Shown here: positions 1 to 37,400 of the stretch, one piece after another
Layout: the number at the start of each line of letters is the position of its first letter
Numbering within the stretch: position 1 is the first letter of the stretch
From: Cenococcum geophilum
Lineage: Eukaryota
DNA: 64,000 nt
NCBI GenBank assembly: GCA_050273025.1
Contig: CP158635.1
Location: 20,832,001 to 20,896,000 of the forward strand
Reading direction: 5' to 3'
Notes under the pieces: model-generated
What the model saw: only the letters and a program-made list of their open reading frames with translations
Database searches by the model: none
What the model was told of the DNA's origin: nothing
Program-made: the position numbers and the translations under genes

Positions 1-32
1 TGACAAGACGTTGAACTGATTGAAATGAACAG

Positions 33-187
33 AGTCTAGGAAGCGAAAGCCATCCATAGATGGCGACGCATCGTTAGGTCAGAGCAAATGCCTCCGAGAA
101 GGCTTTGAAATCAGCGACCCGCTCGAAGATACCACTGCTGGGACGGTTAAGGTACGGCGTAGTACCCGACTGAGAGGAAAGTCATGA
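33..187 (+). CDS. Probable last exon of an un-RIPed gene of unknown function (…SRKRKPSIDGDASLGQSKCLREGFEISDPLEDTTAGTVKVRRSTRLRGKS*)
   Basis: Branch-like CTGAT at 16-20, acceptor CAG at 30-32, open frame to TGA at 185-187; normal CpA/TpG content; basic NLS-like stretches. Confidence 0.5.
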
Positions 188-296
188 CGGTCGTTATCTC
201 GTATCATCCTTTTGTCATTCGCTTAGTATAGGAGATATTTATTACACTTAAAAAACCATGGAATGGATATTAGCAATCTTTCCGACGATAAGTACT

Positions 297-499
297 TGTA
301 AGGGATATTATCACGGTCATCTCGGGAAACCCTCAGGGCAGCCCTCGGGTAGCCCTCGGATGGTCGTCGGTCACGTACCCGTAGTATATAGTCTCCTCGA
401 TCCCAGAGGCCTTATCTCCTTAAGGATTCGTCTCCTCCACAATCTATCTTGTTCCTACAATCGTGCCTTATAGCCCCCTGCCCACAAAGTCCCTTTACG
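297..499. mobile_element. Solo LTR (~203 bp)
   Basis: Begins TGTAAGGGA, ends TCCCTTTACG (short terminal IR); 5-bp TSD GTACT at 292-296 and 500-504; internal TATA-like GTATATAG. Confidence 0.75.
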
Positions 500-557
500 G
501 TACTATAACGGGTAATTTTAATAAATAAAATATTATTATTTATTTGTTCATTGCTTA

Positions 558-1192
558 ATGTCTAATACGGATCCTATGTGGCCCACGCAGACTACTCCGT
601 CACAGGGGGGAAAACTTGTGTATTTACAGGAAGAAAACCCCTGCAGTTGGGGGAGGAAAACCCCTATAAGCCACCTCAGTAGGATGAAAAACCCCGATTT
701 GCCATGTCCGCACGTAGCAGCGGCCCTGCGGGCCTACAGCTACGTCCCGCCTCCTTAGATGTTTTGGACTCCTTGGGAACCACTACTTCCTTTTCCAGCT
801 CATCCAAAGCTGGGCCTTACTACGTCCCAGCTAGGCCTTGCCGATCGATCGCCGTATCTTGTTGTTGTTGCTTCCCATGTTATTATAACCGTCCCCTGTG
901 TACTATCTCTTGTTGACCATTGCCATATACGCCTTGCCTCCCCCCCCTAAGGCCTATTAAAGGCGTAAGGGGGATTCACCCATTTTAATTACCATTTAAT
1001 ACCGAAAGGCGAGCGGGATGTGTATGTGTATGTGCTCTGGGTGTCTTTTATGCCTAGGCCCCGGTTGCTAGGCCCTCCCTATAGAGGCCAAGATATAAGG
1101 AGGAGACAGGGAAAACCGTAGGGGGTTGTTATCTAGGCTGCCAGGCAGTATTACGGCAGCAAAATGGCGAGTGAATGCTCCGCGGGCGATCG
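558..1192 (+). repeat. Left copy of a ~620-bp inverted repeat (partner 48187-48801); candidate long TIR
   Basis: TA|ATGTCTAATACGGATCCTATGTGGCCCACGCAGACTACTCCG… aligns collinearly with the reverse complement of 48187-48801 up to ATGCTCCGCGGGCGATCG. Confidence 0.9.
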
Positions 1193-1391
1193 GTGCCGGT
1201 TACGTTGCTTATGGAACTAAATCCTAGCGCGCATTTGTAATATGCTCGCCCCATAGTAATTTAGTACGTGCGCACCATCGCGCCCATAACGCGTCGGATG
1301 TTAAAACAATACCTTGCCCTCGCCATTAAACTTAAAGCTTTTGATCCTTATACAAATCCTCTATCGCGATTAAATCTTAGAGGAGTTTGCA

Positions 1392-3130
1392 ATGCCTTAT
1401 AGACGCACACCCGCTTCTACCCCCCCTACTACTACTAGCGGCAGCAGCGCTTACCTAATTCTTTATATACCTAACGATATTACTAATTAGAGGTATGCTT
1501 TCTTTACCCTCTAGCAGAACCTTTATTTAAGCGTTAAATAGTTTAACTAGCTCTAGCCTTATATAACAAACCAGTAGTCTAATTAGGGTAAAATATATAA
1601 TAAGTATTCTATTAACTATATTTTTAAATATTACTTCTAGTATAAGCAGCAGCTAAAAAGCAGAGGAGAAGGTATTTATTTACGCTTAATTTAAACCGCT
1701 AATTTATGCGGTATAGTATATAAGGTAGTGTAAGCTTTGCAGTGCGAAGAATTGAATGAACGACTTGATTGTGAATGTAGCTCTAGAGGCTCTATATATA
1801 CACGAAGAAGGTAGAAGTAATGGGGTAATAGATAGCTGAAATGGGAACGGTAATCTGCCACCAATATTGATCTGCAACCAATATATTGGGTGGCGTTGAC
1901 GCCGTCTTGGAGCCTTCCAAGCGGTGATCTTGTGTCTCAGCGTAGTGTCGGTAGTCGGTTACAGGTAGTATATAATTATCTAGCTAGGTAAGCAGAAGGT
2001 AGGGCGTTATTTTTAATTACTATTACTAAAATAAGGAAGTTGTGCTCCAAATATAATTATTCCTTAAAGGATATTAATACGTTTAAACGGCTAGAGGCTC
2101 TTATATAAGCTACTGCTACTAAGGTATTAAAAAACTATTAGTACTATAAGGTTGCTATTATAATTAAAGCACCCTATATACCTAAAGCTAAGCAGCGACT
2201 TTATAACGCTAAAGGCCTATATTTTAACTAGTAAGACGTTAAAAACGCTAGAAGACACTAGAAGAAGGCAAATCCAGATATATATTAGGTTAGTAACTTA
2301 TTTCCTATTAATATATAAGAGCTAGAGGCTTTTAACTAGCTTAATAATTAACCTAGTAAGTAGCTCTAGGGTTAGATTTAGTAAGCCTTAGTATACGGAA
2401 CTTGCCGAACTTCTTTATTTAAGTATATTATGTTAAAATCTAACTTTTAATAGAACAGTATATATCTGCTAAAATTACTATAAACTGTTCTTACGATAGT
2501 ATAGAGTTTTAGGGTATTATATTTACCTATCCTAATTAAGTTAAAACCCTCTAGCTACGTGGCCACCTTATACTTATAGATGCCACGCATAAGATAAACT
2601 GGCTTAAATAGCTACTCTATACTATTATAGTTTGTAATAAACATGGTTGCTAAGTACTAGGTAGATATTTTTTTACTAAAAAGGAAGATGGTAATATTGT
2701 AGTTAAAGCGTTAAAAGTGTTTAAGTAATAGTATTCGCTCTAGCAGATGCTAGTTAATATAGCAATTACTAATAAATAGTAATTAGGTATAGTGGGTATA
2801 GAGGCTAGTAACCTCACTATATACTTACTAACAACTCTACTACTAAGATAATAGCAGTTTAATAAGCCTTTAAGCCTTTTATAGACGCAGATCTTATTAT
2901 AGATTATCTACTTTATATAGTACACTTAAAACGGACGCTTAAATATAACTTTGCTAGTAAGAAGTACGCCAAAGTTCTATACTATATAATTATCGCCCTA
3001 AAGTTTTAATCAAGTATATATAAATATTACAATAGTTTAAGGGAGGCAATTAAGATTTTAGAGCGTAGGAAGGACTATAAGAAGTTTAACTATCTTATTA
3101 AGGAGTAGTGGGACTCTAGTAATACCTAGG
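1392..3130 (+). pseudogene. RIP-inactivated Mutator-like (MULE) DDE transposase, interrupted by a solo LTR and 3'-truncated
   Basis: De-RIPed motifs HDHSLEDIDAFKR (~2050), LMDATHKTNWLKWLLYTIMVRDEHG (~2573-2650), TDDSAxE (~2827), LCTVHSERT (~2911), YLIKEWWDS (~3090). Confidence 0.85.
1729..1963. mobile_element. Solo LTR (235 bp) inserted in the MULE transposase; little RIP
   Basis: TGTAA…TTACA ends; 5-bp TSD GGTAG at 1724-1728 and 1964-1968. Confidence 0.9.
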
Positions 3131-3540
3131 TGCCTAAAAGCATAGTTTTTTTTACAAGACTTTAGATGCTGCCAAAAATAGGGCAGTGCCCCTTTAACGG
3201 GGTAAGCTGGGTAAGTTAGGTAATGCAACACTAAGTATAGGTAACGATGCTTACTCTTGCTCACCCTCGCTTACTTATATGCAACTTATTATACAGTTAC
3301 TTACCTACTACCCACTTACCGTCACCTAGCCTTACCCTATAGCCCAAACCGACCTCCTTTTAAAGCGCTAATTTAGACTATAGAGGAAAGGATCCTAAGA
3401 AAGGGGGTCTGTAACTTTCCTATCTTTCCCCTCAAAATGTTACAAATAGCCTCCAGCTCCATTTGCTCCTCTCCATTACTTCCTACGCAATCTTTATTAA
3501 TAATCCTTTTACATTCTAGTTTGTGTTGCGTTATATAACT

Positions 3541-6500
3541 ATAGCCTTAGCTGTTTATAGCTAAATAGAAACCTACTACCTATAAACGCTAGGTACGCGC
3601 TACAGCTAATAGCTACTAAAGGGGAGCTTACCGAGAGAGGGATTCTGTAAAGGATAAAAACAAATATATTAAAGTAACCGAAGAACTTTAAGACTAGGCT
3701 TTAATCCTATATAAGGAGTAGGTAGACTATAAAACACATTTAAGAACTATGCTAACTTTAAGAAAATAGATAGATGGCAGCGGATAGTAATAATAAGGGG
3801 GAGTGCCTTGCTAAAGGAGCGTAAGCTCCCAACCTAGCGACCATTAAGGATTTTATTCGCTTCTATATTAAAACCTTAAAAAGATAAATCTCTCTTAACC
3901 CTATCTAATTATTAGTGTTAAATTTTGTGGAAAGATTTTTTAGTAGCTTTAAGCGGCTTATTAACACTAAAATTAATATATAGGATAGGAGTAATGTTTT
4001 CCATATAAGTGTCTCTCGTAGTATTTACAAAATAATATCGCTAACCTACAATACTGCTAGTGGATCTATAACACTCTTATTAAAAATAGCACTATTAAGT
4101 ATATAGAAAGGCCAAAACATAATTTTGTAAAGCAGAATCTTATTAACCTCCTTAACTCTATATAGGCTATAGATAATCCTAAATTTATCTATAAACGCTA
4201 TAGAGTTTAGCTTATATTCGCTATTTTAAGTTTCTATTTTTCTAGAGCAAGAATTAGCGCTTTTATTCCTAAGCCATTATAGAAAGATAGAGGCATACGC
4301 TATAAAGTAGGTAATATCTAGTATTAATTTTAAGCCATGTCTAACTTTTTAGGATATTAAAAATTTTCTTTAGTGCGTTCCGGACGGCTAGATTATAAGT
4401 TATTAACTTAACTAGCGTTTTATAAAAAACAATTAAAATCCGAAATTTATAAAGTACTATACTCCCTAGCTACTTTACTTATTTTGGCAAGCAAGCTAAT
4501 AATAGGGCTACTTAGGTTTGGAATTCCATTTATAAAGAACAAAGTCCTTAGATTTAACGCCGCGCTATTCCTTCTAGCACTCACATTTGCAAACAATATA
4601 CTCTTTAGGTATAATTCTTTAGCAAATTTATAGGAGTAAGAAATTATCTCTAGTAAGGATAAGGTAGTTCCTTAATAAAAAGAAGAGGCCTTAGAGAAAC
4701 CAGTAATGCGGATAATCTTTACAAATAGATATATTTCTAAAGACGCGCCGTTTAATAATATAGTCTTTTATAAGCTATTATAACTAGCCTTAGAGAACTT
4801 AGGGTTTTTTAGGCGTATTACTGTTTACTTAATATGTTAAGGTTTAGCAAATAAAGTTAATAGTAAGTTAATATCCAGTCAGATCCTTTCTTTTATTATA
4901 TTTACGCTAATTACCTACATTTAATTTACTAACTATTTCTTTAAAAACGGCAACTAAGGCTAAACAGTCACAGCTTTTAAATTAAAAAGACCCTAAAATT
5001 TATAGCTAGGCTTATATCGCTAATATTACGGCAGTAAATATAATAGTAATATATTTGGACAAGCTAGCTAAGACTCGGCATATTAAATATCTTTAGGGCC
5101 CTAGGAGGTACCAAGAATAAAGTCTTTTAATTATTCTGCTAGCTAAAATAGAAAAATCTATTTCGTATAATCTGGAACTTATAGGGCTAAAGAGAAAGGC
5201 CTAATAGCTAAAACTAAGCGGTGCTAATAAGAGCAAAATATCTAATATAAAATTGGAGCTTAGACTCCGTTATAAACAAATTAGGAAAAAAGCTTATTAT
5301 TAGTACCAACAGGACTAGGTATATAAGAGAAGGGATTAAAAGATTCTATCTTAAGGGAAAGAGCTTCTAAAAGATCCTACTAAGACCAATATTATTAGGG
5401 ATATCTTTAGAGTTATGCCAGAGCGTGCCCGTATCGCTAAAATATAAAAATCTACGAAAGCATTATTAAAGAAAGAGAAGCTAAGGGTAGTTAAAGATCT
5501 CCTTTCCTTATATAAGCAAGACCTATAAATTATCTACTAACTAGAAGAAGAGCCAATTAATAAAAAGTATCCAATTAAAGGTTGCGGTAAGCATATATAA
5601 AAGTTGCCACTATCTACTACCTAAAGCTCTACTATAATACTAATTAGTATAGTCTTTAAAAACCGCAACGAAGTAGTTATATCTATAGTTACTACCGTAG
5701 GGAACTTACTATAAGGCTTAGCCGAAAGGAATATAAGCTAATTTATTACTTCCTATACTTTAAATAGTTTAGTAATAAGTAAAAATAGAAAACGTACTAC
5801 TAAAATCATCTTACATCTATGGAGTCGTTTAGGTGTAAGATTACGACATATTAATATACCCTTATTCATACCGGGTACTATACCTTTTACCTCTATAATG
5901 CCGGACTTTTAGTATTATTAAGAATGCGGTAGTAAATAAGAAGTACTAAGTTATAGGATTATATAGAGATCTATATCAATAACTATACCTAGCCCTCTCC
6001 TTACCTGGATAATTGGTATAAAACCTTAAATAGTACAGCGTTATATCGCTATTATCTAAGCGATTTTTATAGTTTCTAGCGGTATATTTTAAACTGTTAC
6101 AAAAACAGAGATTATCTTAAAGAGGATAAGGTAGATGGCGACCTTAAAGATAAAATTAAGACAGCTTAGAAACGTAAGAGGAATAATATAAGTTAAGGCC
6201 TAAGTAAACGGAGGTTAGAATCCCCGGACAAAAAAAAGCAGATAAGAATAGATTCTATATATTTTATTAAGTGGCACCCTTTCTAGTTCAATAACCTGCG
6301 GAGTAAAAGTATAGGTCTATACCCCACTCTAGCGTTTAAGACCACCTCTATACCACCTTATAGTATAAGCGTTATAAGCAATAAGAGTTCTTAAAGTCTT
6401 CCTAGCTTAGACCTCTATAAATTAAATACAGCCTTTAAAACCAAGATTTTAGGAAATAAAGATGCGATTAATAAGGATAAGATTAATCTATATTTAAGAT

Positions 6501-6600
6501 AGTAGCCTATAAGCTCTATACCTAACCATCCTATTAGTTTATACGGTTATACTATACTAAAAGAGTATTTAACCTTAAAAGTTATAGATTTAATATTATT
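3541..6600 (+). pseudogene. RIP-inactivated DUF3435 tyrosine recombinase (Starship 'captain'-like), multi-exon, with C-terminal Cys/His fingers
   Basis: De-RIPed PDLATIKDFIRFY (~3828), NFAERFFSGF (~3920), RPKHNF (~4109), DDPKFIHERYRVQ…SGARIGA (~4172-4260), TVHSxRxGLANKVD (~4820), YGQAYIAN (~5001), CFLCFEW…HCQNHL and CHTLIxxGYCxFCL (~5745-5895); several GT…AG introns. Confidence 0.85.
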
Positions 6601-6610
6601 AGACTAATAA

Positions 6611-6737
6611 TGTGAGGTGATAAGCTCCGCACCACTCAGCCACACAAACCCACAAAAGGTAAACGAGTGACTGGCTTGATGCCAGACACGGCTGTGCGGA
6701 ACAATATATATAGGCGAGGTGACTTCGTCACCTGATA
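6611..6737. mobile_element. Small solo-LTR-like insertion (127 bp), largely un-RIPed
   Basis: TG start, …CCTGATA end (CA after reversing RIP), AATAA direct repeat on both sides; GC-richer than the flanks. Confidence 0.55.
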
Positions 6738-9219
6738 AATAAAGACCTATTTTTATATATTCTATTTTTATGGTTTTAGTTTATATAATATTCTATCTAT
6801 ATATTTATAATATAAGAGCTACCTTATATAGCTTATAAATTTTAGATAAAAGATCAGATATATAAAATATGTATATTAACTTATTATTTAATACCTATTT
6901 TAAAAATGGCACTATCCTTAGTACCCCATTAACTTCAGTATACCTAGCGGCCGCAGCTATCTTAAGTGCAAATTAGGTAGGTAAACTCCACCTATTAATA
7001 TTATTAAGAATTATAATAATAGTTATAGTATATCCAGTTACTATAGCTACCTCTAACATTTTTCCTAACTGCTAGGTTTAGGAGCCTATGTTCTAGCCCA
7101 TCTTATCTTTAAATATCCCACTAACAATCCCGCTATCGCGGCTATTATTAAAACTTCTCCTAACTCCTAAATCCGACCCTAGAAAGTATAGCCCTTAATA
7201 TTATTAAGAGAACTAGTAAGAGCTTAAAGACTTTTATAGGAGCCCGTTTTGCGGCTTAGCATATAACACTTTATCAGCTATTCTAATTAAGGTTTCTATA
7301 AAAAGCGGCCAATAAAAACCGCCACGTAAAAAAAACCCAATATAATGTAGTAATATAGCCACTTAAGATATAAATGAATTTAAGACTTATTCTATATACT
7401 TACTAAGCTATTACTATACTAACTTACACTTAATTTAGTATAAGAAATTAATCTAACCCTAGGCCTTACCAGTTAGGTAGGGGTATAAACTCTAACTTAG
7501 ACTTTACTTCCTATATAGCCTAGTAAGAGCTAATTACAAATTTTCTAAAATAATCTGCAATCTACGCCCAATCGTTTATTATCTGCTGTATTTATTAAAT
7601 ATTAGCTTAAGCTGCCTAGAGTACAGGTCTTAGTTTATTTACTTCCTCCTCTACATATCCTTTTAATTTAAACTCTTTAATTACCTAATCCCGCCAATAA
7701 TTAAGCTTAATAGTTAATCTACTATTCTCTACTTCTAATTTTTTAATCTTCCTTAAAAAGCTTACGTCTTCTTACTAAGAAGTATCCTTCTCTAAATAAT
7801 CTAAATAATATATAGATGTACTAGCAGGAACAGCTTTAAACGATATACCTATATTACGGCATAGTTCTATATACGCTCTAATTAAATACTTACTTATATG
7901 TTTTTTTTATAAATAAATACCACTTTTTAGGCAGAAATGTCTAATTATAAGGATTATCGGGACCTGTAATTAGACGGACTTATAATAGTTTAATTAAAAT
8001 CCCTAATTTACTAGCTTTAAGACTTAATTAGTAACTTAAGTCCGCTAGTTAAAAGTTCTATACCCTTATAAATATGTTTAGATAACTGTTGTTAATATTA
8101 AGCCCCCTACTTAGCACGCTTAAGGTTTGCTCTTTAAGGCAGAGCCATTTTAGGGTTAAATTTTTTATTTTGTTTATGTATAGGCCCCCCAAAATTTAAG
8201 TATCCCAAAATAGCTAGCGGCAAAATTGGCTTTAGCTAGAATCTACTAACTTCCTACTATACTAACTATAGAAGCGTATTTTATAAAGCAGAAGGGAGCC
8301 AGAATAAAGCCCTTCTAAAAATAGTAACTAGTTAACTCAAAATCACTTACTATACTACTTTAGCCGACCCCTTACTATAGACAACTAATGCTCTATTTCT
8401 GGTGCGTAGAATTTATAATAGTAACCGAGCACCAATAAGCAAAAGCTATAAAGCCTAGGTATACTCTAAATATATAATTACTTATAAAACTAGCTTTTGC
8501 CTTAACGCACCTAAGACTAGAGTTGTTATATTCTTAGTAAACGCTAGTGTTCTTATATGGATTATATTACCGTAGCCTAAGGTTACCTATTACTAAGTTA
8601 ACTAAAGCGCACAAAAAATCTTAACGCGGACTAAGCTCGCAATAATTATAGTCTAACTTTACAATACGGCCTAACTTATTATATAACATACGGCTATATC
8701 TACGTCGCAGAATTCTCTAAAAGAATATTATATTACACTACCTTTAAGCGTTATAGATGTAGATACGCCTTTAACGCCTCCGCTAACTAACAATAATTGT
8801 CTCGTTCCCAGACCTTCTTGCCAAGGCTTACCTTGCCAAGACGCTAGCCGCTTTTGGCAAGACCTTCGTTAGAAGGTCTGGTACACGGTTCGGATTTTTA
8901 TTAGTCCCGCGCGGGGTATTTAGGCCTATATACACCTACTTTAAGCCAAATTATCTCAACTCTTATAGCTCCCTAAGCTATTCCTAATAGCTAGAATTAC
9001 CAAAGCAAACCTGGCGAAGAAGACTACGTTGCCTGATTTGCCCGATTCTAATTCGTTATCTCGTTGTCGCGCCCGACGCCCCCAAGTCGTAGCAGCCCAC
9101 GACCACCGCCGCCCTCTTCCTACTGTAGCCAGAGTACCCAAACCGACGAGCCAGCTTTAAATAATAACTAAGGACTACTAGCAGGTATAGATTTGCTTTA
9201 TAGAAGGGGGTAAGCTTTA

Positions 9220-10082
9220 GGTAGAGCCTCGCGCAGAGCTTTAATAAAGCCTTATGTAGAGCTTTAGTAGAGGCTTACGCAGAGCCCTACGCAGAGCTCC
9301 GCGTAGAGCTTCGTGCAGAGCTTCTGCAGAGCTTCGTGCAGAGCTTCGTGCAGAGCTTTGTGCAGAGCTTTATGCAGAGCCTCCGTACGCAGAGCTTCGT
9401 GCAGAGCTTCATGCAGAGCTTTATGCAGAGCCTCCGTACGCAGAGCTTCGTGCAGAGCTTCATGCAGAGCTTTATGCAGAGCCTCCGTACGCAGAGCTTC
9501 GTGCAGAGCCTCCGTACGCAGAGCTTCGTGCAGAGCCTCCGTACGCAGAGCTTCGTGCAGAGCCTCCGTACGCAGAGCTTCGTGCAGAGCCTCCGTACGC
9601 AGAGCTTCGTGCAGAGCCTCCGTACGCAGAGCTTCGTGCAGAGCCTCCGTACGCAGAGCTTCGTGCAGAGCTTCGTGCAGAGCTTCGTGCAGAGCTTCGT
9701 GCAGAGCTTCGTGCAGAGCTTCGTGCAGAGCCTCGTGCAGAGCCTCGTGCAGAGCCTCTGCAGAGCTTCCTGCAGAGCTTCGAGCAGAACTTCGAGCAGA
9801 GCTTCGTGCAGAGCCCCGTGCAGAGCTTCGTGCAGAGCCTCATACAGAGCTTCGTGCAGAGCCTCGTGCAGAGCTTTGAGCAGAGCCTTATGTAGAGCTT
9901 TAAAGAGCTTTAAGCAGAGCTTTAAGCAGAGCTTCGAGTAGAGCTTTAAGTAGAGCTTTAAGCGGAGCTTTATATAGAGCCTTGTATAGAGCTTTATATA
10001 GAGTCTTATATAGAACTTTATATAGAGCCTTATATAGAGCCTTATATAGAGCTTTATATAGAGCTTTATATAGAGCTTTATA
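9220..10082 (+). repeat. 12-bp-based minisatellite (CAGAGCTTCGTG with CAGAGCCTCCGTACG variants)
   Basis: Directly visible tandem array; edge units are RIPed to TAGAGCTTTATA. Confidence 0.95.
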
Positions 10083-10189
10083 TAAATATATAGGCGTATA
10101 GATATATATTTTTATACTAGTAATTAATTATAAAATTTATAGAAATATTTATATAGAAAATTATATAGATATTTATTTATTTATTTATA

Positions 10190-11285
10190 GTAAGGCTAAT
10201 AATACTATACGGCTCCTAGATCTAGGGCCCAGGACTAGGTAGTAAGGTATTAATAAAAAGTTCCTTAGCGCTATTAGCTAAGCTATAAAACTAGTACCTA
10301 TATAGAACTATAAGGGTTTATAAGAGAACACTACGCGCCATACTAGAATATAAAGTAGTAGTTTTACTAGTAGACTTATATTAATATAACTACTATATAG
10401 AGAATAGTTATAGTATAAGGCTACCTAGTAAAAGAAAATATATACTAAATACTAAAACGTATATAAGGAATAAGACGTATATAAGGATCGAAGGCCCCTT
10501 AAAGAGGCAATACGCCTAAATATACTAGCTAGGAAGCTCTCTACCTATAGGTAGTAAAGAGAGAAAAGAAAATATAAAAACTATTAGCTTACTAGGCGGA
10601 GACCTAGCGCCGTATTAATAGAGTACTACTATAGTAATAGAGGATAAGAGGCTATTAGTATAGATAGAGATCTACCATACTTATTATAAAATAGGTAGAC
10701 CTTAAATAGAAGGAGGTAGTGAAAATATAAGACGTAGCTATATAGAATACCCTATAGTTAATACTAATACTCCTCCTATATAAAGGACTAATAAAGGTAA
10801 AATCTATAGCCGCTTTCCTACTATAGATAGAGATTTTAAGCCTAAATATATAGCTAGTAAGTATTTATATTCTAAATATTATACCTTAATACACTTATAG
10901 ATAGCCTATTTAGTTAGTATACTATATACTACTTTTCTATAGCTACTACTTACTAAGGTATTAGCTATTTACTAGTATAGGTATAAATAATATTACTTAT
11001 ACTCTCTATAAGTAGGGGCCTATAAGTAGTATTAAAATAGCTTATAGGCTAAGGAGTTTTTAGTAGTTCTAAATAGTATATAAGATTTAATAGGAGGACA
11101 CTAAAGGATATACCCCTTTTAGCCCCTTAGAGACTAAATACCGCTGCTTAGCTATAAGTAGTATGCTAATAAATTACCAAATACTTCTACTGCCCCCTCT
11201 AGATCTTCTAATATACCTAAAAAGTATAGTATATAAGGTAGACCTAAAGATATAAAGATATATTAGTTTAGTAAAGGTAGAATAT
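10190..11285 (+). mobile_element. RIPed Tad1-like LINE fragment (ORF2 C-terminal part)
   Basis: De-RIPed VRPTMLYGSQIWG…LAKLQNQCLRRTMGAYKRTP…; homologous to the three other copies in 11288-16893. Confidence 0.8.
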
Positions 11286-11287
11286 AT

Positions 11288-12750
11288 AAAACTAATATAT
11301 TTTTATATCTTTAGGTCTGCCTTATATACTATATTTTTTAGGTATATTAGAAGATTTAGGGGGGGTAGTAGAAGTATCTAGTAATTCGCTAGCGTACTAC
11401 CTACTACTAGGTAGGGGTATTTAGTCTTTAAGGGGCTAAAAAAGGGCGTACCCTTTAGTATCCTTCTATTAGATCTTATATACTATTTAGAACTATTAAA
11501 GAACTTTTTAGCCTATAAGCTATCTTATTACTACCTATATACCTTTACTTATAGAGAGTATTTAGGTAATATTGTTTATACCTATACTAGTAAGTAGCTA
11601 GTCCCTTACTAAGCGGTAACTATAGAATAGTAATATATAGCGTACTAACTAAATAGGCCACCCATATATATTAAGGTAAGGTATTTAAAATATGGATGCT
11701 TATTAGTTATATATTTAGGCCTAAACCCTTTATCTATAGTAGAAAGGCGACTATAGATTTTATCTTTATTAGTATTAACTATAGGGTGTTCTTTATAGCT
11801 GCGTCTTATATTTTTACTACCTTCTTCTATTATTGCTTTTATTTAAGATCTGCCTATCTTATAATTAGTATAGTAGATTTCTATCTATATTAGTAACCTT
11901 TTATCCTTTATTACCATTATAGCGCTCTACTAGTATTGTATTAGGTCTTTGCCTAGTAAGCTAATAGTTTCTATATTTCCTTTTCTCTCTTTACTACTTA
12001 TAAGTAGTAGGCTTCCTAGCTAGTATATTTAGGCGTATTACCTCTTTAAGGGGCTATCGCTCCTTATATATATTTTAGTATTTAGTATATATTTTCTTCT
12101 ACTAGGTAGCCTTATACTATAACTACTCTCTATATAGTAGTTAAGTTACTATATAAGTCTAGTAGTAGAACTACTACTTCGCGTTCTAGTATAGCGCGTA
12201 ATATTCTTTTATAGGCCCTTATAGTTCTATATAGGTACTAGTTTTATAGCTTAGCTAGTAGCGCTAAGGAGCTTTTTACTAGTACCTTACCGCCTAGTCC
12301 TAAGCCCTAGATTTAGGAGCCGTATAGCATTATTAGCCTTACTACTACTATATATAGTAGACGTATATATTTAAAAGAGGGTCCTTATATTAAAGTAGTA
12401 ATTTATAATACTACTAAAAATACTACTACTTCTCTATAAGTCGCCTATATAATATACTTGTTTTAGTTTAACCTAGAGTCTATCTAAACCCCTAAAACCT
12501 TAAGGGTAGCTTCTAGTTTTACTTCGCAGCTCTAGATATTTACTATTAAGGCTAGGTCGCTACTTACCCTTTTTTCCCTTATAAAGTAAATAAGCTAGTA
12601 ATTATTTAGTACGAATTTAGCGCTATATTGTTTTGCCTATATAATATACCTATTATATACCTAGTTTAGCCTAGTATTGTTTTCTACTACTATATTTCCC
12701 TATATAATTAAGCTTATATTATCTATATATTTTAGGACTATTATATCCTA
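11288..12750 (-). mobile_element. RIPed LINE fragment (late RT to C-terminal region), inverted relative to 10190-11285
   Basis: Minus strand WARQHGAKFAP…LKVLGVQMDSRLNW…ITASTWGPSF…LLYTAVVRP. Confidence 0.8.
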
Positions 12751-12751
12751 G

Positions 12752-13850
12752 CTATTATTATTATTATTTATTTATTCTATTTATTGCCCGATTTAGTCCC
12801 TTTACTAAGTCTATATAGGCTTCTACCTTCTATTTATAGGAAAAATCCCTAATAAGGGAAAAACCTAGGTGTTTCCTTTTAGCTAATCTTATGCGCTCCG
12901 CCTATACCTAGCCTATTTACCTTTTATACTATACTTCTAAGGTATCTTAGAAGGTCTAGGGGGTAGTAGGAGGGTCTAGTAAGTCGCCTATAAGCTGCCT
13001 TTAACTTAGTAGGGTTATTTAGTCCCTAAGGGGCTAAAAAGGGGCCTATCCCTTATATCCTCTTATTAGATCTTATACGCTATCTAAAACTACTAGAGGA
13101 CTTCTTAACCTATAAACTATTATACTGTTTTATATAGGCCCCTACTTATAAATAGTATTTATATAATATTATTTATGCCCACCCTAGTAAATAGCTAGTC
13201 TTTTACTATATAGTAGTTATAGAAGAGTATTATATAGCGTACTAACTATATAGGCTATTTATACGTATAGTATAGTATAGTATTTAGGATATAGATACTT
13301 ACTAGATATACGTTTAGCCCTAAGACCTCTATCTATAATAGAAAGGCGGCTATAAATTCTACCTTTATCTATCCTTTATATAGAGAGAAAGTTAATATTA
13401 TTTATAGGGTGCTCCACGTAGTTCCTCTCTACGCTTTTACCGCCTTCTTTTAACATCGTTTTCACTTAATATCTACCTATCTTGCGATATATATAGTAGA
13501 TCTCCACTTATACTAGTGGCCCCCTATCCTTTACTATTACTATAGTGCTCTACTAGCGTGGCGCTAAGTGTTATAGTAGCTTTTATATTTCCTATTCTCT
13601 TTCTACTACTTATAGATAGAGGGCTTTTTAACTTATAAGCTTAGGCGTAATGCTTCTTTATAGGGCCCTTGCTCCTTATATACGCTCTACTATTTAGTAT
13701 ATCTTCTTCTTTACTAGGTGGCCTTATACTATGGATGCCCTCTATATAGCAGTTGCTTCTATATATACGTCTAGTAGTAGTAGTACTACTTTACGTTCTA
13801 TTACGGTATATAGTGTCCTTTTATAGGCCCCTATAGTTCTATATAGCTAT
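12752..13850 (-). mobile_element. RIPed 5'-truncated LINE copy with (TAA)n-like 3' tail
   Basis: Tail read as TATTATTATTATTATTTT at ~12753-12775; homologous to 15560-16893. Confidence 0.8.
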
Positions 13851-13859
13851 TATTTTAGC

Positions 13860-16893: not shown

Positions 16894-16949
16894 TATATAG
16901 GCGGTTATATAGCTAATTATAGAACCTTCCTAGTATATTAGTGCTGTGT

Positions 16950-18187: not shown

Positions 18188-19194
18188 GCGGAGGAGCAAT
18201 AGAGCAGGTAATAAGGCCTAGAGTTAGTCTAGATACAATACATTAGCTATTTAGGTGTTTATCTACTATAAATATTAATATAGGAGGTCAAATGTTAAGA
18301 GTTAGTGGCTCTGGCTAAATGTTTACTGTTTTGGTGTTAATTTGGTGGCAATATTTTAGGCGAAACGTAGCGGTAACCACCAGGCCGTTTGTAATAATTT
18401 TGGCGGCGTTAGAGTCGCCCTGCAAAGCTCTAGAACGTAACGTTAGCCGATTATTTATAAAGGCGTTGGTTCGTTGTTGATTGATGGCTAAAAAATTAGT
18501 ATGGCGCGCGAGTTTGTATGAGAATTACATACAAATTGGCGCGAGGGACTAACAAATTTCCGAACCGTGTACCAGACGACAACAACATAAGATGATTAAT
18601 CTGTTATGTAAGCAGCTTATGATTGGTTGATCGTCTGGGACCGAGATAAAACAATAAAGCCTTTACTAAAGCTTACTAAGTTATTACACTTTTTAAACAT
18701 ATTAAAGCCGGAAGACACTTTAGGCATTACCTATAGACACTCTTTTAGCTTACGCTAGGGGAATATAATAAGATAGAGCACCAGCTTACGCGAGATAAGT
18801 CGCTATTAGTTATATAAAGGACAAGATACGGTATATAGGCTTAAGGGATAATAGAGCGGCTAGCTAATAATGGAAATTAGATAGATATAACTATAATAAA
18901 AGAAATTATTAACTTACTGTTCGGATACCGACTGGTATACATAAAATATTTATCGCTAGTATTAAGGATGCAATTTACAGCTAGCTAAAACTAATTCGTA
19001 ATAGGTTAGACAGGCAGCTTTATTTATATAAAGGGTGCGCCTAGGGTATATAGGCATCACCGTACCAGAAAGAGGCGTCTGGCTTATATTTCAACTTTAT
19101 ATTAGGTAGAGCGTCATTAACTAAAAAATACATCGGGAAAATATTCGCAGGATGAGATTTAAGTAGACTTTGATTTTCGTGTTTCGCGTAATTG

Positions 19195-19440
19195 ACATGC
19201 AATTTAACTAACTCGATACGTAATTAACCAACTTAATACGCATTTAACTAACTTAACACGTAATTTAACCAACTTAACACGCAATTAACTAACTTAACAC
19301 GCAATTTAACCAACTTAATACGCAATTAACTAACTTAACACGTAATTCGACCAACTTAATACGTAATTAACTAACTTAATATGTAATTTAATTAACTTAA
19401 TACGCAATTAATATGTAATTAACTAACTTAATATATTTAA
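19195..19440. repeat. 20-21-bp tandem repeat (CAATTTAACCAACTTAACACG-like)
   Basis: Visible tandem units, roughly a dozen. Confidence 0.9.
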
Positions 19441-19589
19441 AAGTTAAATAATACGCAGTTAACCTACTTAGCAACTTTAAAAGGTAACTATATATTTCTT
19501 AACATACAATTAAGGTAAAGTTGTATGCTATATATTTAACTATTATATATTATCTAATATAATCTTATACAATCTTATATAGTCTTATT

Positions 19590-19922
19590 ACTTAAAGGCT
19601 CTGCACGAGGCTCTGCACGAGGCTCTACACGAAGCTCTACACGAAGCTCTGCGTACAGAGGCTCTGCACGAAGCTCTGCGCATAGAGGCTCTGCACGAAG
19701 CTCTGCACGAAGCTCTGCACGAGGCTCTGCGCGAAGCTCTGCGTACGGAGGCTCTACACAAAGCTCTGCACGAGGCTCTGCGCGAAGCTCTGCATACGGA
19801 GGCTCTACACGAAGCTCTACACGAAGCTCTATACGAAGCTCTACGTACAGAGGCTCTACACAAGGCTCTGCGCGAAGCTCTGCGTGAAGCTCTGCGTACG
19901 GAGGCTCTACACGAAGCTCTGC
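19590..19922 (-). repeat. Reverse-strand copy of the CAGAGCTTCGTG/CAGAGCCTCCGTACG minisatellite
   Basis: GCTCTGCACGAA and GCTCTGCGTACGGAG units are the reverse complement of the 9220-10082 units. Confidence 0.95.
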
Positions 19923-20049
19923 ATCGGGTCCCCGCTATATTCCCGATAGCGTCTACACGTGTCTCTACCTATGTAGCCGCCTTATTTTTTACCCTTCCTT
20001 CCTTCCTTACATCCTCCCTACCTAGGGAGGCACTAGAACGGCAGCCAGC

Positions 20050-20520: not shown

Positions 20521-20569
20521 ACTAGCCAGCGAACACTATAAACGATTCGATCAATTAATCGAATTAAGG

Positions 20570-33100: not shown

Positions 33101-33185
33101 TAGCGAAGGTATAAACTTAATTCGTATAAGTTGCCTAAAATTAAATATTAGTAATAAAAACTTAATAATAGCTTTCTCCTCCTCT

Positions 33186-33378: not shown

Positions 33379-34469
33379 CCTCTTAGGTAAGGTATTGCTG
33401 GCTTTAGGCCTATTCCTCTCTTAAGCGTTATCCGTAACTACAATAGTAGAGGGTAGAGAGAGGAATATCGCCCTATTTTAATAGGGCAGTATATATTCTA
33501 GGCACATCTATAGGAAGGCCTTTTACTAGCACCTGGCTAGCTCGGTCTATATTAGCAATTATAGTAATAGGAAAGAAATAAGTAAAAGGCTAACAATAAC
33601 CCCATACACTTAACTTCTAAAAATAGCCAGCACATAACCACTTAAGGAAGGAAGCTTCTAGAAGAGCGCCACACTTTACATTATTTTAGCATAGTGTAGA
33701 GTATAATATAACTAGCTAGATATACAATATATCACTATATAAGCGCGCTAAATCTACACGCCAAGCTGCAGAGCATACCTCCGCATAGAGAAACTTAAAA
33801 GTGCATACTTTTTAAGAGCTAAGCGTCTTCAAATCTTAGAGGTATTCTTTTTTCTTAATAGAATTATTGTCTTAAGGCTCCAAAATCTAACAATACGTAG
33901 ATAGTTATAGTAGAGTAGGGGTACAAAGCTGATATAGTTCTAGATGCTGTAAACGGAATAATTAACAGCATAACTAAGACTGTTGTATTTTTCTCGCTAT
34001 AGATTGGTGTCGGAAGGAGAAATATCTAAAGAATAATAATATATTAATTATAACTTTATAGACTTACAAGGTAAAGACTTAAGGTGCCTAAATAATAAAT
34101 TTATTTCAGCGTGGGGGGTTTTTCGCCCCTTAGGGAGGGACGTTACTAATGTATTATATCTATCTTCTGCTTAACTCCTAGTTATAATGCTAGTACAGCA
34201 GCGAACTTTATATACCAAAATACTCGTCCGTTAAGTTTCTTTATTAATTTAATATTAAGTCACGTAGATAATATGGAAGTCTATATTATAGCCCAATCTA
34301 TATAATAAAGAGTTTCTAACTCCAGTTTAAAGTATCCAGCTCGCACACGCCTATGCACTCACCCGTACTACAAAGGCATTCTTTCTACTAAATTATGTTT
34401 TTATATATTGTGTTTTTATATTTATTGTTAAGCAAAAGCTTTAGGCTAAGACTAAATAGGACCTTTATT

Positions 34470-37400
34470 GGCTTATACGTGAATAAAGTTAATAGGCTAC
34501 TTTTGCGTCAGATCGGCTCACTATTGTAAATAACTATATCCTATGTAATAATGCCAAATTCTAAAGGGTCTACCTTAATAACCTCAAATTCAACTTGCTC
34601 TATGCCGTTATAAGCTATAAAGTTATTACCTTAGTATACTGGCCGGTATGCCCCCTAAAAGTAGAAAATAAGAAAGTTATTAAATAGTAAATTAGTAATA
34701 CTGCTTTAAATAGGACGAACAGCAATACGCTTAGCCTAAATATAGTTAGTATTATTATTAAATCGATAGAAATACCTACCGGTTTAATATCCAGATATAG
34801 ATATATCTAAATGCTATTACCACTCGCGACTTAAAGATTATTACGAATAATATAATCTACTTAAGCGATACTATCTTCTAGCTTATTATTCTTTAATATA
34901 ATTAGGACTATACTTTTTCCTACTTAACCTTTAACTAATATAATGTTCCTATAAGAAAACTTAGAGGTATTTATAGTATTATTTAAAAGGGCGATAATAG
35001 AGCTGTTAGTGCTAATAGTTTTAGCAACGCTGTTATTAATTAACTTAGTAAATATTTAAAGCTTTATAATAATGCTTAGACACTTATATTAAAGAATTTA
35101 CTCTGCTCTTTTTATAATTAATAGATATTATCTTATCCTACGAGAATGTTAGATAAAAAGGATATATAAGTAGTTAAGCGTATATTAGGAGAATATATTT
35201 TTTAATAACCTCCACACTAAAGATCTTATTTATTCCACGTTTTAGTTATAGCCAAAGTTCTATAAAAATGATTTTCTGGGGGAAGAGACCGTTCTATATA
35301 CTAAAATTATATAAAAATCGATTTAGGTAAAGTTTTAACACCCTTATAGAAACCGTTTCCGGAGTTATATAGGCACACTTTACATACTAAAAATAGCGCG
35401 TCCTATCTTAGGGTCTAGATTAACAGTTTTCTTCTCCTTTTATATTTATTGATAAAACTAGTTATATATATTACGTCAGACAGCTTTAAGGAATTAAAAA
35501 GTCACTTTCCTAAACATTTTAATATCCTAGGATATTAAAAGGCCTGTGGGTTATATATATATACTAGTATTTAAAGCAAACCCTAGCTTATTTAGCATTA
35601 ACTAAACCCACATAGTGTTCCTGTTAGAACTCGTGTTAGGATTATATTAATAAGGATCTAAGCTATTTATATAGGGGGGAGGGACCCCCTATAGAACCCT
35701 AAACTAGGTCCTATTTAGCTTTTAATAGTTTTATATTTTAGTAGCTAGGCTTAAATATTATACTCCTATTATCTAAGAGATTTAAGGATTAGCTAATCGA
35801 GACCCTAGTCTTATAGTTAATATTATTATAATATAGTAGCGAAGGTTCTTTAATTGGAATATAAGAGCTACTTAGTTCTAATTTATAGCCTAAATTAAAA
35901 AACCAATAAGAGACGCGAGCGAGATAGAGTTTTAGACAACTGCGGTAGGATAATCTTATAGGGCATGTAGGCCTTAATAGGCGTATAATAGAGATAAAAT
36001 CGTTTATACTGTATATCCTTTTAATAGTAGACAAGAGGGCTGCCATAGGTAGATTTATATTACAAACTTTCTTAAATAATATCATTTTCTAAATATAGTA
36101 GAGTATAAGAACCTTTTCTAGGGCCTTTTTATTTTTAGTAATTAAGAGCTAGCGACAATATATATAAGTATAGGGTCTCCTTTTAACCTTTTAAAGGGAT
36201 TTAAATTAAAAACTATATTATAAGTAATAAGGTAAGTCAAACCCTATAGCAGAGATGCGTATACTAACAAAAAAGTAGTAATAAGATTCTTAATAGTTAA
36301 CAAAAAGTCTCTAACTATAAGTCTTTAGGTAGTGGCAGAGTTGTAAGTATTACAGTAGCTATTTTCGTATTTATTATTATAGTAAATGCCCTCTATATAT
36401 ATTTGCGTAGGCGGAAGCGCCCAATATGGGTTAGAAATTTTAAAATCCGTTCTAGCCCGGCTATATTACAACCTTAGCTAAATAGAGTAGCAATATTAGA
36501 GTAACAAAGTAGCAAATTTAAGTTAATATTAGAGCCTACACTTAAGATTAGTAACTAGCTTATTTAAAAGGCCTACGTTACTTTTATAATATTCGAAAAA
36601 CCTAATATATCTACTATTTATTATAATACTCTAAAGGCGGACATACTTAATACTAAGATAAAGAATTATATATCTATAAACTTGCTAAGGTTATAAAGTT
36701 TTACATTTATTAAAGTTAAAGCTTTAAGTAAATCTTTAAATAGTTATAGGGTAGTTTTAAGACCTTAATAACCTATCGTGCACCTAAATATAGTTAACTC
36801 TTATAGCTGCTTAGAACTAATATTTTCTAATATACCCATAATAGCACTCCAATTACCCGGTTTAAATGCTTTAATAAATAACAATAGAGTTTTAAGGTTT
36901 AATAAGTAATATATAAACTAAAAAGAACTATCTACCTACGGCTACGAAAATCTGCTAAGCATAACTATAAGATTTAGGAGTTTTATATACTTAAGAATTA
37001 ATAAGTATTTATCTAAATTGCGAAGGTTTTTAGACCTTATATTTTCTAGTTAGAGTTTAAGGGGTCTATTTTACAAAGCTTTTACTATTACTAATAATGT
37101 AATCGCGAGTTTGTATTCGTCTCTATATTTATAGCGGTAAGGAATATTACAATATATAATTGTAATGAAATTCTTTATAACCCTTAAGCTTTTAATAAGG
37201 AGAGAGGTAAGAGGGCTTAATAATAGCTAACGTCCACGCCAGTCTAGTAAGGTTATATTAAGAGTAATTTCTTTAATATAATAATAGGGCTTGCGCTTTA
37301 GAAATTCTTTAAACTCTACTAAGCTTTTTAGCGATATATTAACTTTTACTTTACAATAACACTTCTACTAAAAAGTATTTAGGCCTATAAAATAAAGTTG

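What the first reader, a model, noticed from the sequence alone, without database searches (positions are those of the whole stretch)
3131..6600. RIP-killed Starship captain (DUF3435 tyrosine recombinase) directly after the break in the MULE transposase
Seen: the MULE frame ends abruptly at ~3130, and ~400 bp later a DUF3435-like gene begins, with recognisable R (SGARIG), HxxR and Y motifs. Known: captains sit at the 5' end of Starships, upstream of their cargo. Inference: a Starship begins near 3131-3340 and the dead genes downstream are its cargo. I did not find the rest of the MULE gene in the window, so this is either a Starship/MULE chimera or an insertion followed by deletion. The ORF track shows none of this.
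Basis: partly seen in the sequence, partly recalled or inferred. Interest (0 to 1): 0.8.

Follow-up and report, generated by a model that had tools for sequence, protein, structure and literature searches.

The report
Dead Starship-type recombinase gene relic
This stretch holds a mutation-riddled, dead copy of the recombinase gene that drives giant fungal "Starship" transposons, lying at the edge of a gene-free block of decayed transposons; such relics are common, and whether a whole Starship lies behind it cannot be shown here.

Summary
The core observation holds. Window 3557/3584-6124 (+) is a near full-length DUF3435 ("captain"-type) tyrosine-recombinase pseudogene. It is colinear with intact Aspergillus and Paecilomyces DUF3435 proteins (tblastn E 1e-29 to 3e-38; 48 shuffled or reversed controls gave at best E 0.26). 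It carries 40 in-frame TAA/TAG stops in 741 codons and shows classical CpA-targeted RIP.

The MULE relic upstream has only sub-threshold Pfam support. Its "abrupt end" and missing C-terminus could not be tested, because no intact homolog could be retrieved.

The Starship interpretation is only partly supported. No boundary, direct repeat, empty site or cargo gene was found. The 64 kb contain no intact gene; every recognisable relic is a transposon (MULE, pogo/Fot1-type DDE_1, hAT, Ty3-type integrase).

A diverged metagenomic copy (L002) shares a backbone with the window from 3483 to at least 34579. It lacks the blocks that hold the DDE_1 and hAT relics, so these are later insertions or replacements, not demonstrated cargo.

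Verdict: an ordinary derelict captain relic, a new member of a known kind. It is possibly the head of a decayed Starship.

The parts
1..307 (+). Unique, non-RIPed left flank. Bases 1-3 (TGA) are the stop codon of an intact 408-codon ORF that lies upstream of the window in contig L001.
   Evidence: L001 5591-14385 equals window 1-8796 at 99.8%. The ORF L001:4367-5590 ends at the window's first codon. X1 depth here is at the single-copy level, 48.
308..2149 (.). Short high-copy repeats (308-1228 and 1536-2149), less RIPed than their surroundings. 555-1192 has an inverted copy at 48804-48187.
   Evidence: Summed contig depth is in the thousands, against about 48 for single copy. Self-blastn gives 76% identity. 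GC is 0.42-0.47.
2150..3130 (+). MULE-type transposase relic in frame 2, with the recognisable core at about 2561-2737. Heavily RIPed. Its extent and truncation are unverified.
   Evidence: PF21056 E 1e-5 (25.9 bits) and PF10551 E 7e-3 (17.2 bits), both below the gathering scores. CpA ratio 0.38.
3131..3556 (.). Spacer between the two relics. It is milder in RIP signature and higher in GC. It would hold the recombinase promoter and any 5' terminus of the element.
   Evidence: CpA observed/expected is 0.69 against 0.38 on both sides, and GC is 0.38-0.42. No TIR or DR was found.
3557..6124 (+). RIP-inactivated DUF3435 (captain-type) tyrosine-recombinase pseudogene. Homologous segments: 3599-3712 (f2), 3783-4031 (f3), 4061-4306 (f2), 4391-4891 (f2), 4944-5591 (f3), 5660-6124 (f2). 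The likely start codon is now ATA at 3557.
   Evidence: There are 40 stops in 741 codons, 23 TAA and 17 TAG and no TGA.
4250..4252 (+). Codon AGA, aligned with the Arg of the homolog's SGARIG box (first catalytic Arg of the RKHRY pentad). Retained.
   Evidence: The pentad is as described in PMC10104507 (passages read).
4826..4840 (+). H-x-x-R-R site of the homolog (IHTLRRG), which now reads Y-L-I-C-stop (TAC ... TGT TAA). The second catalytic Arg is lost by a C-to-T change.
   Evidence: Copy L002 reads YLIRRG and fragment P0005 reads YLIYYG.
5013..5015 (+). Codon TAT, aligned with the presumed nucleophile Tyr (homolog GRSYI). It lies 35 residues after the H site in P0006, the same spacing as Y381/Y416 in HhpA.
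   Evidence: PMC10104507 passages.
4307..4390 (+). An 84-nt insertion relative to the homologs. It begins with GTAGGT and contains CTAAC, so it is probably a former intron. Further frame changes at 3712/3783, 4031/4061, 4891/4944 and 5591/5660 are introns or indels.
   Evidence: The assignment as an intron is an inference.
6125..8796 (.). Backbone of unknown content that follows the gene. It is shared with the diverged copy L002 and is a low-copy repeat in the runs. It contains a high-copy segment at about 6448-6754 and a 125-bp indel (6611-6735).
   Evidence: L002 is colinear at 84-89%. For depth and the 6605->6738 joint. No Pfam hit on either strand.
18658..19044 (.). Continuation of the shared backbone after the 9.85-kb insertion.
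   Evidence: L002 5720-6116 and L001 14378-14862 join it directly to 8796.
34147..34579 (.). The furthest backbone block shared with L002, whose contig ends here.
   Evidence: L002 6742-7174 at 89%.

Best explanation
Window 3557-6124 is a dead, near full-length copy of a captain-type (DUF3435) tyrosine-recombinase gene. In life, such an enzyme cuts and rejoins DNA through an R-K-H/Y-R-Y active site and so excises and integrates the Starship element that carries it. This copy belongs to a low-copy repeat family. Because it was duplicated, the fungal genome defence RIP (C-to-T at CpA in repeated DNA before meiosis) riddled it with stop codons and removed a catalytic arginine, so it can do nothing now. 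It lies about 3.5 kb inside the left edge of a gene-free, RIPed transposon block of more than 60 kb that starts just after a normal gene. It heads an old sequence backbone that a second, diverged copy shares out to at least window 34579. Into that backbone other transposons were inserted later. Shown: the homology, the inactivation, the RIP signature, the multi-copy status, the backbone colinearity and the nested insertions. Inferred (my odds about 0.45): that this is the 5' head of a derelict Starship-type element whose left end lies somewhere between 3.1 and 3.5 kb.
For: Homology: phmmer gave 63 hits. Of the 34 I scanned, 18 are PF11917 proteins. tblastn is colinear over residues 15-602 of 624 in P0006 and out to about residue 750 of the 1092-1109 aa homologs; controls were negative. 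Inactivation: 40 TAA/TAG stops in 741 codons and at least 4 frame changes; the catalytic site reads Y-L-I-C-stop. RIP: TpA/ApT is 1.6-1.9 and (CpA+TpG)/(ApC+GpT) is 0.47-0.48. CpA is depleted to 0.38 while CpC, CpT and CpG are not. Multi-copy family: contigs 90-95% alike in four runs differ from the window almost only by transitions (X1 491 of 524; X6 702 of 736). L002 differs by 304 transitions in 326 substitutions and is also dead, with 37 stops in its P0006-aligned segments. RIP-like fragments 74-82% identical occur in other metagenome contigs. Position: the upstream flank in L001 has normal GC, no RIP signature and long ORFs. Backbone: L002 is colinear with 3483-8796, 18651-19044 and 34147-34579. 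Literature: captains are the first gene, the 5' boundary is usually within 2 kb of the captain, RIP inactivates Starships, and such copies are called 'derelict' (PMC10104507 and PMC11162782, passages read).
Against: No Pfam hit of the relic itself to PF11917, even at E<=10; membership rests on transitive homology. For the Starship part: no boundary, DR/TIR or empty site was found. L002's contig stops at window-equivalent 3483, so the 5' end is unseen. None of the conserved Starship accessory families (DUF3723, ferric reductase, patatin, NLR) and no other non-transposon gene relic was found in the 62% of the six-frame space scanned, though Pfam is clearly insensitive on this DNA. A MULE relic and high-copy repeats lie between the gene and the block's edge. 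L002 could be the orthologous locus of a related fungus, in which case the colinearity says nothing about a mobile unit. Only 597 bounded elements were recovered from 10,771 predicted YR genes in the starfish survey (PMC11162782, passage), so a captain-type gene alone does not imply a ship.
Confidence: 0.85

Rival explanations
1. A Starship inserted into a MULE transposase gene at about 3131-3340, cutting off its C-terminus, and the dead genes further downstream are the Starship's cargo.
For: The MULE-like frame loses recognisable similarity before 3130, and the captain-type gene starts about 430 bp later, pointing away from it. Some Starship families prefer AT-rich, RIPed transposon sequence as a target (PMC11162782, passage). 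The spacer 3131-3556 differs in GC and CpA depletion from both neighbours.
Against: The MULE hit covers only model positions 2-50 of 99 and is below threshold. The relic begins only about 410 bp before that core, next to a high-copy repeat, so it may be cut at both ends like any fragment in a transposon graveyard. No second MULE piece was seen in the scanned part of the window. The DDE_1 and hAT relics lie in a block where L002 has different sequence. Two other blocks are bona fide TIR/TSD insertions absent from L001.
Confidence: 0.12
2. A compact DUF3435 element of modest size that carries little or no cargo. On this view the unit is a Crypton-sized or 'mini-Starship' transposon that multiplied to a few copies and was then RIPed.
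For: The family is multi-copy in several genomes. No cargo gene is recognisable behind the gene. DUF3435 repeats were at first annotated as Cryptons (PMC9156397, passage).
Against: L002's homology does not stop after the gene. It runs through 8796, 18651-19044 and 34147-34579 to the end of its 7.3-kb contig, so the shared unit is at least 7.3 kb and limited only by the contig.
Confidence: 0.1
3. There is no definable ship. This is an old captain-gene fragment inherited vertically or copied by segmental duplication within a RIPed repeat block, and L002 is simply the orthologous locus of a related fungus.
For: L002 and the window share many of the same stop positions and the same 'empty' junction at 8796/18651. 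The whole 64 kb is a mosaic of transposon relics.
Against: Shared stops are expected from independent RIP at the same CpA sites. Up to three to five distinct contig variants of parts of the relic occur within single runs of organism B, which fits a dispersed repeat better than a single orthologous locus.
Confidence: 0.3

Closest known systems
Starship captains: DUF3435 (PF11917) tyrosine recombinases such as HhpA of Hephaestus and Kirc of Enterprise (PMC10104507, PMC9156397; passages read)
   Same: The relic is homologous along almost the whole length of DUF3435 proteins. The positions of the first Arg, the H/Y-x-x-R site and the Tyr nucleophile align, with the same 35-residue H-to-Y spacing in the closest intact homolog as in HhpA. 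The gene points into a large AT-rich block near its edge.
   Different: It is dead: 40 stops, frame changes and the second catalytic Arg lost. It was not compared with HhpA or Kirc themselves or with the starfish captain HMMs, which are not available here. No element boundaries are known.
'Derelict' or 'degraded' Starships inactivated by RIP (term recommended in PMC11162782; RIP of Hephaestus shown experimentally in PMC10104507)
   Same: A multi-copy captain-bearing sequence mutated by CpA-targeted C-to-T transitions, with differences between copies 93-95% transitions.
   Different: Published derelicts are recognised as copies of a delimited element. Here the element itself is not delimited and no cargo is recognisable.
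THC92169.1, hypothetical protein EYZ11_008356 of Aspergillus tanneri (P0006), and the cluster of KAK6810460.1 / XP_028485085.1 / KAH1841333.1 (Aspergillus parasiticus, Paecilomyces variotii, A. fumigatus)
   Same: These are the best intact relatives, 28-45% identical per segment and colinear. All carry PF11917.
   Different: They are intact ORFs in Eurotiomycetes. I found no paper naming these accessions in the full-text library, so whether they are captains of delimited Starships is unknown to me.
Crypton DNA transposons (tyrosine-recombinase elements of fungi)
   Same: A tyrosine-recombinase-encoding repeat with no obvious TIRs.
   Different: DUF3435 recombinases form a clade separate from Crypton recombinases according to PMC9156397 (passage). 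Not tested here.

Membership tests
DUF3435 / captain-type tyrosine recombinase (PF11917) | Significant match to the Pfam model PF11917 | tested here: not met
   No hit at E<=1 on three-frame read-throughs of 1-7000, and none at E<=10 on 12 pieces of 400-420 aa. RIP has shifted the composition too far.
DUF3435 / captain-type tyrosine recombinase (PF11917) | Sequence homology to verified family members over the domain | tested here: met
   phmmer gave 63 hits. Of 34 scanned, 18 carry PF11917. tblastn is colinear over residues 15-602 of 624, E 2e-29 to 3e-38. 48 control queries reach at best E 0.26.
DUF3435 / captain-type tyrosine recombinase (PF11917) | Catalytic pentad R-K-H(Y)-R-Y | tested here: inconclusive
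   R1 is kept (AGA at 4250). The H site is Tyr (TAC at 4826; also Y in L002 and P0005, H in P0006 and P0011). R2 is Cys (TGT at 4835), and the next Arg is a stop. The Tyr nucleophile is kept (TAT at 5013). Lys was not assigned.
DUF3435 / captain-type tyrosine recombinase (PF11917) | Open reading frame able to give a protein | tested here: not met
   40 stops in 741 homologous codons and at least 4 frame changes. No ORF of 90 aa or more.
Starship (giant cargo-carrying element) | DUF3435 gene at the 5' end, reading inward, as the first gene (PMC9156397, PMC10104507) | tested here: inconclusive
   The gene reads into the AT block and starts about 3.5 kb from the last unique flank base. A MULE relic and high-copy repeats lie in between, and the element's end is not located.
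Starship (giant cargo-carrying element) | Boundaries defined by direct repeats/TSD (with or without TIRs) against an empty site | tested here: not met
   No convincing DR or TIR in 2100-9200. L001 has the same arrangement, and L002's contig ends at 3483. No joint in the laid contigs removes the block; one weak joint (479->6691, 35 letters on the shorter side) was set aside. No whole genome is held.
Starship (giant cargo-carrying element) | Large size (published screens keep 15 kb or more) with cargo genes | tested here: inconclusive
   The backbone shared with L002 spans window 3483-34579, but only about 6-7 kb of it is shared sequence and it is limited by the contig. No non-transposon gene was recognised and there is no intact ORF in the 64 kb.
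Starship-like region (PMC9156397) | Colocalised DUF3723, ferric reductase, patatin-like or NLR genes | tested here: not met
   None found at E<=0.01 in the roughly 62% of the six-frame space scanned with Pfam. Sensitivity is low on RIPed DNA. Not scanned: 44.5-54.5 kb on both strands; the minus strand of 3.6-6.0, 9.2-21 and 54.5-64 kb; one plus frame of 21-34.5 kb.
MULE (Mutator-like) transposase | MULE transposase domain PF10551 | tested here: inconclusive
   17.2 bits against a cutoff of 27.6, covering model positions 2-50 of 99. The related PF21056 gives 25.9 bits against 27.2, E 1e-5.
MULE (Mutator-like) transposase | Full-length colinearity with an intact MULE, needed to place the break | not testable with these tools
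   Three word-index searches found no homolog. The ESM Atlas does not accept read-through translations.

The most novel reading that the evidence does not exclude
The relic heads an old Starship whose backbone can still be traced across at least 31 kb of the window (3.5 to 34.6 kb). The ship has since been filled with nested transposons. Two of these (a 9.85-kb TIR element and a 2.1-kb TA-target element) are recent enough to be absent from a 99.8% identical genome. If so, this locus would be a datable record of how a giant cargo transposon decays into a gene-free AT-rich isochore next to normal genes.
Probability: 0.3. Interest if true: 0.45.

Novelty: new member of a known kind. Interest (0 to 1): 0.22.

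Why it matters
It matters modestly. RIP-killed captain genes are an expected and already described fate of Starships, and this scan has met several. The value here is for annotation. The relic explains part of an otherwise unreadable AT-rich block, shows that the block starts directly after a normal gene, and provides a marker for asking whether such blocks begin as Starship insertions. The comparison with two metagenomic contigs also shows which parts of the block are later transposon insertions. That argues against reading every dead gene behind a captain as cargo.

Tried and rejected
- **Direct Pfam detection of DUF3435.** Three frames of 1-7000 and 12 shorter pieces gave nothing.
- **MULE homolog retrieval.** Three word-index searches found no candidate, even with max_evalue 10 on the last one.
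- **Whole genome.** None is held.
- **Earlier notes.** There are none on this genome or on P0006.
- **Laid contigs, not used as evidence:**
  - organism-B runs X6 and X7 show next to no cover of the unique flank 1-307;
  - X6 has no cover at 3294;
  - contigs of X6 and X7 begin at 3434 and 3444, and L002 begins at 3483, which might hint at a repeat boundary near 3.43-3.48 kb, but contig ends and holes prove nothing;
  - one joint in X6 (479->6691) rests on 35 letters at 90% likeness between two high-copy repeats.
- **TIR/DR search in 2100-9200.** Only short matches at the level of chance.
- **Target-site RNA genes (5S rRNA, tRNA).** None in the window. One Rfam hit at E 0.6 is noise.
- **Stop-codon density as a guide to hidden coding relics.** Not discriminating.
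- **Literature search for the homologs' accessions.** No paper found.
- **Pfam on 54.5-64 kb (+).** Nothing, although frame 2 there looks to me, by recall only, like a retroelement polyprotein. I take this as a measure of Pfam's insensitivity on this DNA and not as absence.
- **Weak Pfam rows.** DUF445, Filament and DUF4938 (E 0.01-0.07, far below their cutoffs) were set aside as chance.
Full report
**Setting.** The window is AT-rich throughout (GC mostly 0.26-0.36) and carries the dinucleotide signature of repeat-induced point mutation (RIP). In 2001-6000, TpA/ApT is 1.58-1.86 and (CpA+TpG)/(ApC+GpT) is 0.47-0.48. The thresholds usually quoted for RIP (above 0.89 and below 1.03) are recalled, not taken from a call. 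CpA/TpG is depleted to 0.38 of expectation in both the MULE-like stretch and the recombinase stretch, and to 0.13 at 10.1-16.9 kb. CpC, CpT and CpG are not depleted, so this is the classical CpA-targeted kind. The window has no ORF of 90 codons or more apart from minisatellite artefacts, one stretch at 28515-28820 (-) that looks hAT-like to me by recall, and some dozen short frames (95-116 codons) that I did not look into. No whole genome is held.

**The recombinase relic.** Pfam does not see it, neither in three frames of 1-7000 nor in 12 pieces at E<=10.

- An exhaustive phmmer search with the frame-2 read-through of 3842-5101 (stops as X) against 1.84 billion representatives gave 63 hits at E<=1e-3, of which 9 were at E<=1e-10.
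- I scanned 34 of the 63 with Pfam. 18 carry PF11917 DUF3435 (17 above the gathering score), one is an unrelated trypsin-like protein, and 15 short fragments have no family.
- The best intact relatives are hypothetical proteins of Aspergillus tanneri (P0006, 624 aa), A. spectabilis and A. parasiticus, the last in a cluster that includes Paecilomyces variotii and A. fumigatus, plus one of Lecanora helva.
- tblastn puts P0006 residues 15-52, 60-141, 134-377 and 365-602 on 3599-3712 (frame 2), 3783-4031 (frame 3), 4061-4891 (frame 2) and 4944-5582 (frame 3). The 1092-1109 aa homologs extend the match to 6124 (about residue 750). Their last 340 or so residues find nothing.
- All HSPs of the 63 hits fall between 3000 and 7000, so there is no second copy in the window.
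- 48 reversed or shuffled versions of 8 homologs reach at best E 0.26 and 25.4 bits, against 54-88 bits for the real segments.

**Inactivation.** The homologous segments hold 40 in-frame stops in 741 codons: 23 TAA, 17 TAG and no TGA. At least four frame changes occur. One of them (4307-4390) starts with GTAGGT and contains CTAAC, so it is probably a former intron; that is my inference.

| Homolog (P0006) | Window | Position | State |
|---|---|---|---|
| SGARIG | SRARIS | 4241-4258 | Arg codon AGA kept at 4250 |
| IHTLRRG | VYLIC*G | 4823-4843 | TAC, TGT, TAA |
| GRSYI | S*AYI | Tyr at 5013 | Tyr (TAT) kept |

The H and Y of P0006 are 35 residues apart, the same spacing as Y381 and Y416 of HhpA. 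According to passages of PMC10104507, captains carry an RKHRY pentad whose His is a Tyr in a large part of the family. The H site is Tyr in all three RIPed copies I saw: the window, L002 (YLIRRG) and fragment P0005 (YLIYYG). It is His in the intact P0006 and P0011. I cannot say whether Tyr is ancestral here or a C-to-T product. The Lys of the pentad was not assigned.

**A multi-copy family, which explains RIP.** 20 of the 24 listed runs hold at least part of 1-10000, and 5 hold three quarters of its sampled words. I laid four runs on 1-9200 at 90% likeness. They show that 2150-6447 and 6755-8596 are covered at roughly one to five times the single-copy level by contigs 90-95% alike. The differences from the window are almost all transitions: X1 491 of 524, X6 702 of 736. 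By contrast, 308-1228, 1536-2149, 6448-6754 and 8597-9200 are high-copy, with summed depth in the thousands. Contig depth is only a rough guide, as the tool warns.

**Two metagenomic contigs.** A search of JGI metagenome contigs used an alignment of the stop-free window ORF 4412-4633 with fragments P0004 and P0010. Two of 595 pattern matches were confirmed.

- *L001* is 99.8% identical and reads window 1-8796, then 18650-19134, then 21236-26600. It also adds 5.6 kb upstream of the window. That upstream DNA has GC 0.42-0.55, no RIP signature except weakly at L001 2001-3000, and long ORFs. One ORF has a weak Sina-type zinc-finger match, and another on the opposite strand has a weak alpha/beta-hydrolase match. 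A 408-codon ORF ends with the window's first codon, TGA. So the RIPed block begins about 0.3 kb after a normal gene, and the recombinase relic lies about 3.5 kb inside it.
- *L002* is a whole 7278-nt contig, 84-89% identical, and a second, diverged copy. It is colinear with window 3483-6610, 6736-8796, 18651-19044 and 34147-34579, and has three short stretches of its own. Between the window and L002, 304 of 326 substitutions in the gene region are transitions, running in both directions. L002's gene is dead too, with 37 stops in its P0006-aligned segments.

**What the comparison says about 'cargo'.** Window 8797-18649 (9853 bp) is bounded by an 8-bp duplication (AACAATAA) and 15/17 inverted termini, and is absent from both L001 and L002. 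Window 19131-21235 (2105 bp) has perfect 14-bp inverted termini and a TA duplication, and is absent from L001. Window 19045-34146 corresponds to 625 unrelated bases in L002. This block holds the only two clear protein relics of that region: a pogo/Fot1-type DDE_1 domain (E 4.6e-15, about 24348-24701, minus strand) and a hAT dimerisation domain (E 1.2e-3, about 27318-27482, minus strand). A Ty3-type integrase SH3 domain lies at about 43244-43426 on the minus strand (E 1.2e-6, just under the cutoff). The stretch 41.9-46.3 kb is an inverted copy of 54.7-58.9 kb, and 10-17 kb is built from several copies of one 1-2 kb repeat. Every recognisable relic is therefore a transposon, and at least part of what follows the recombinase gene arrived later. 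I scanned about 62% of the six-frame space with Pfam and found none of the families that typify Starship-like regions (DUF3723, ferric reductase, patatin, NLR; definition from PMC9156397, passages). Pfam is plainly insensitive on this DNA, so this negative result is weak.

**The MULE and the junction.** Frame 2 at about 2561-2737 matches PF21056 (E 1e-5, 25.9 bits against a cutoff of 27.2) and PF10551 MULE (E 7e-3, 17.2 against 27.6), over model positions 2-50 of 99. This is better than chance but below the curated thresholds. I could not retrieve an intact homolog. So I could establish neither the place of the break nor the whereabouts of a missing C-terminus. The recognisable core starts only about 410 bp after a high-copy repeat ends at 2149, so the relic may be cut on both sides. 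The 3131-3556 spacer is milder in RIP signature (CpA ratio 0.69; GC about 0.40) than both neighbours. No direct or inverted repeat of note, and no tRNA or 5S gene, marks the spot.

**Comparison with what is known.** By the published definition, a Starship is a region bounded by target-site repeats with a DUF3435 gene at its 5' end (PMC9156397, passages). The captain is always the first gene, and the boundary usually lies within 2 kb of it (PMC10104507 and PMC11162782, passages). Starships are experimentally known to be inactivated by RIP, and such copies are to be called derelict or degraded. Some families prefer AT-rich, RIPed transposon DNA as a target. Only 597 bounded elements came out of 10,771 predicted recombinase genes, and candidates under 15 kb were discarded. 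The relic here meets the homology and orientation criteria, fails the intact-gene criterion, and could not be tested for boundaries. I read only the passages shown by these calls and saw no supplements, which may list the homologs' accessions (none was found in main texts). Earlier notes of this scan, unchecked, describe several similar dead captain relics in other genomes.

**Verdict.** This is a real, ordinary, RIP-killed captain-type recombinase gene of a low-copy family at the edge of a transposon graveyard. It may well be the head of a derelict Starship (my odds about 0.45), because a diverged copy shares sequence far beyond the gene. The specific claims are not supported by what could be tested: a boundary at 3131-3340, a MULE split by the insertion, and downstream dead genes as cargo.

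Noticed in passing
window 8797-18649: A 9853-bp element with 15/17 inverted termini (TTGTCTCGTTCCCAGAC...) and an 8-bp target duplication (AACAATAA). It is absent from the 99.8% identical contig L001 and from L002. It carries minisatellite arrays near both ends (9.2-10.1 and 17-18.2 kb) and several copies of a 1-2 kb repeat, and it is the most heavily RIPed part of the window (CpA ratio 0.13). A very recent insertion of a very decayed element would need explaining: mobilisation in trans, or RIP after arrival.
   Followed up: partly
window 19131-21235: A 2105-bp element with perfect 14-bp inverted termini (CATCGGGAAAATAT) and a TA duplication, absent from L001. It looks like a Tc1/mariner/pogo-style non-autonomous element and holds minisatellite arrays (19.6-20.9 kb).
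   Followed up: partly
window 1-3 and L001:1-5590: The window's first codon is the stop of an intact 408-codon ORF in the metagenomic contig. The 5.6 kb upstream are normal-GC, largely non-RIPed DNA with long ORFs (weak Sina zinc-finger and alpha/beta-hydrolase matches). The RIPed block therefore begins about 0.3 kb after a normal gene.
   Followed up: partly
window 555-1192 and 48187-48804: An inverted pair, 76% identical, belonging to a very high-copy family (summed contig depth in the thousands). GC is about 0.47 and the sequence is little RIPed. The pieces may be too short for RIP (recalled length threshold).
   Followed up: partly
window 24348-24701 (-), 27318-27482 (-), 28515-28820 (-): A pogo/Fot1-type DDE_1 transposase relic (E 4.6e-15), a hAT C-terminal dimerisation domain (E 1.2e-3), and a 102-codon open stretch that looks hAT-like to me by recall.
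   Followed up: partly
window 43244-43426 (-); 41861-46274 against 54667-58867: A Tf2/Ty3-type integrase SH3 domain (28.9 bits against a cutoff of 30). The 41.9-46.3 kb element has an inverted copy at 54.7-58.9 kb (87-90% at the ends), with mirror-image GC and AT skews.
   Followed up: no
window 6611-6735: A 125-bp stretch missing in L002 and skipped by one contig each in runs X1, X6 and X7 (joint 6605->6738). It is an indel polymorphism inside a high-copy segment.
   Followed up: no
window 59000-64000 (+), frame 2: By eye and recall this frame resembles a retroelement integrase/reverse-transcriptase polyprotein, yet Pfam reports nothing at E<=0.01. This is a warning that negative domain scans on this DNA carry little weight.
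   Followed up: partly
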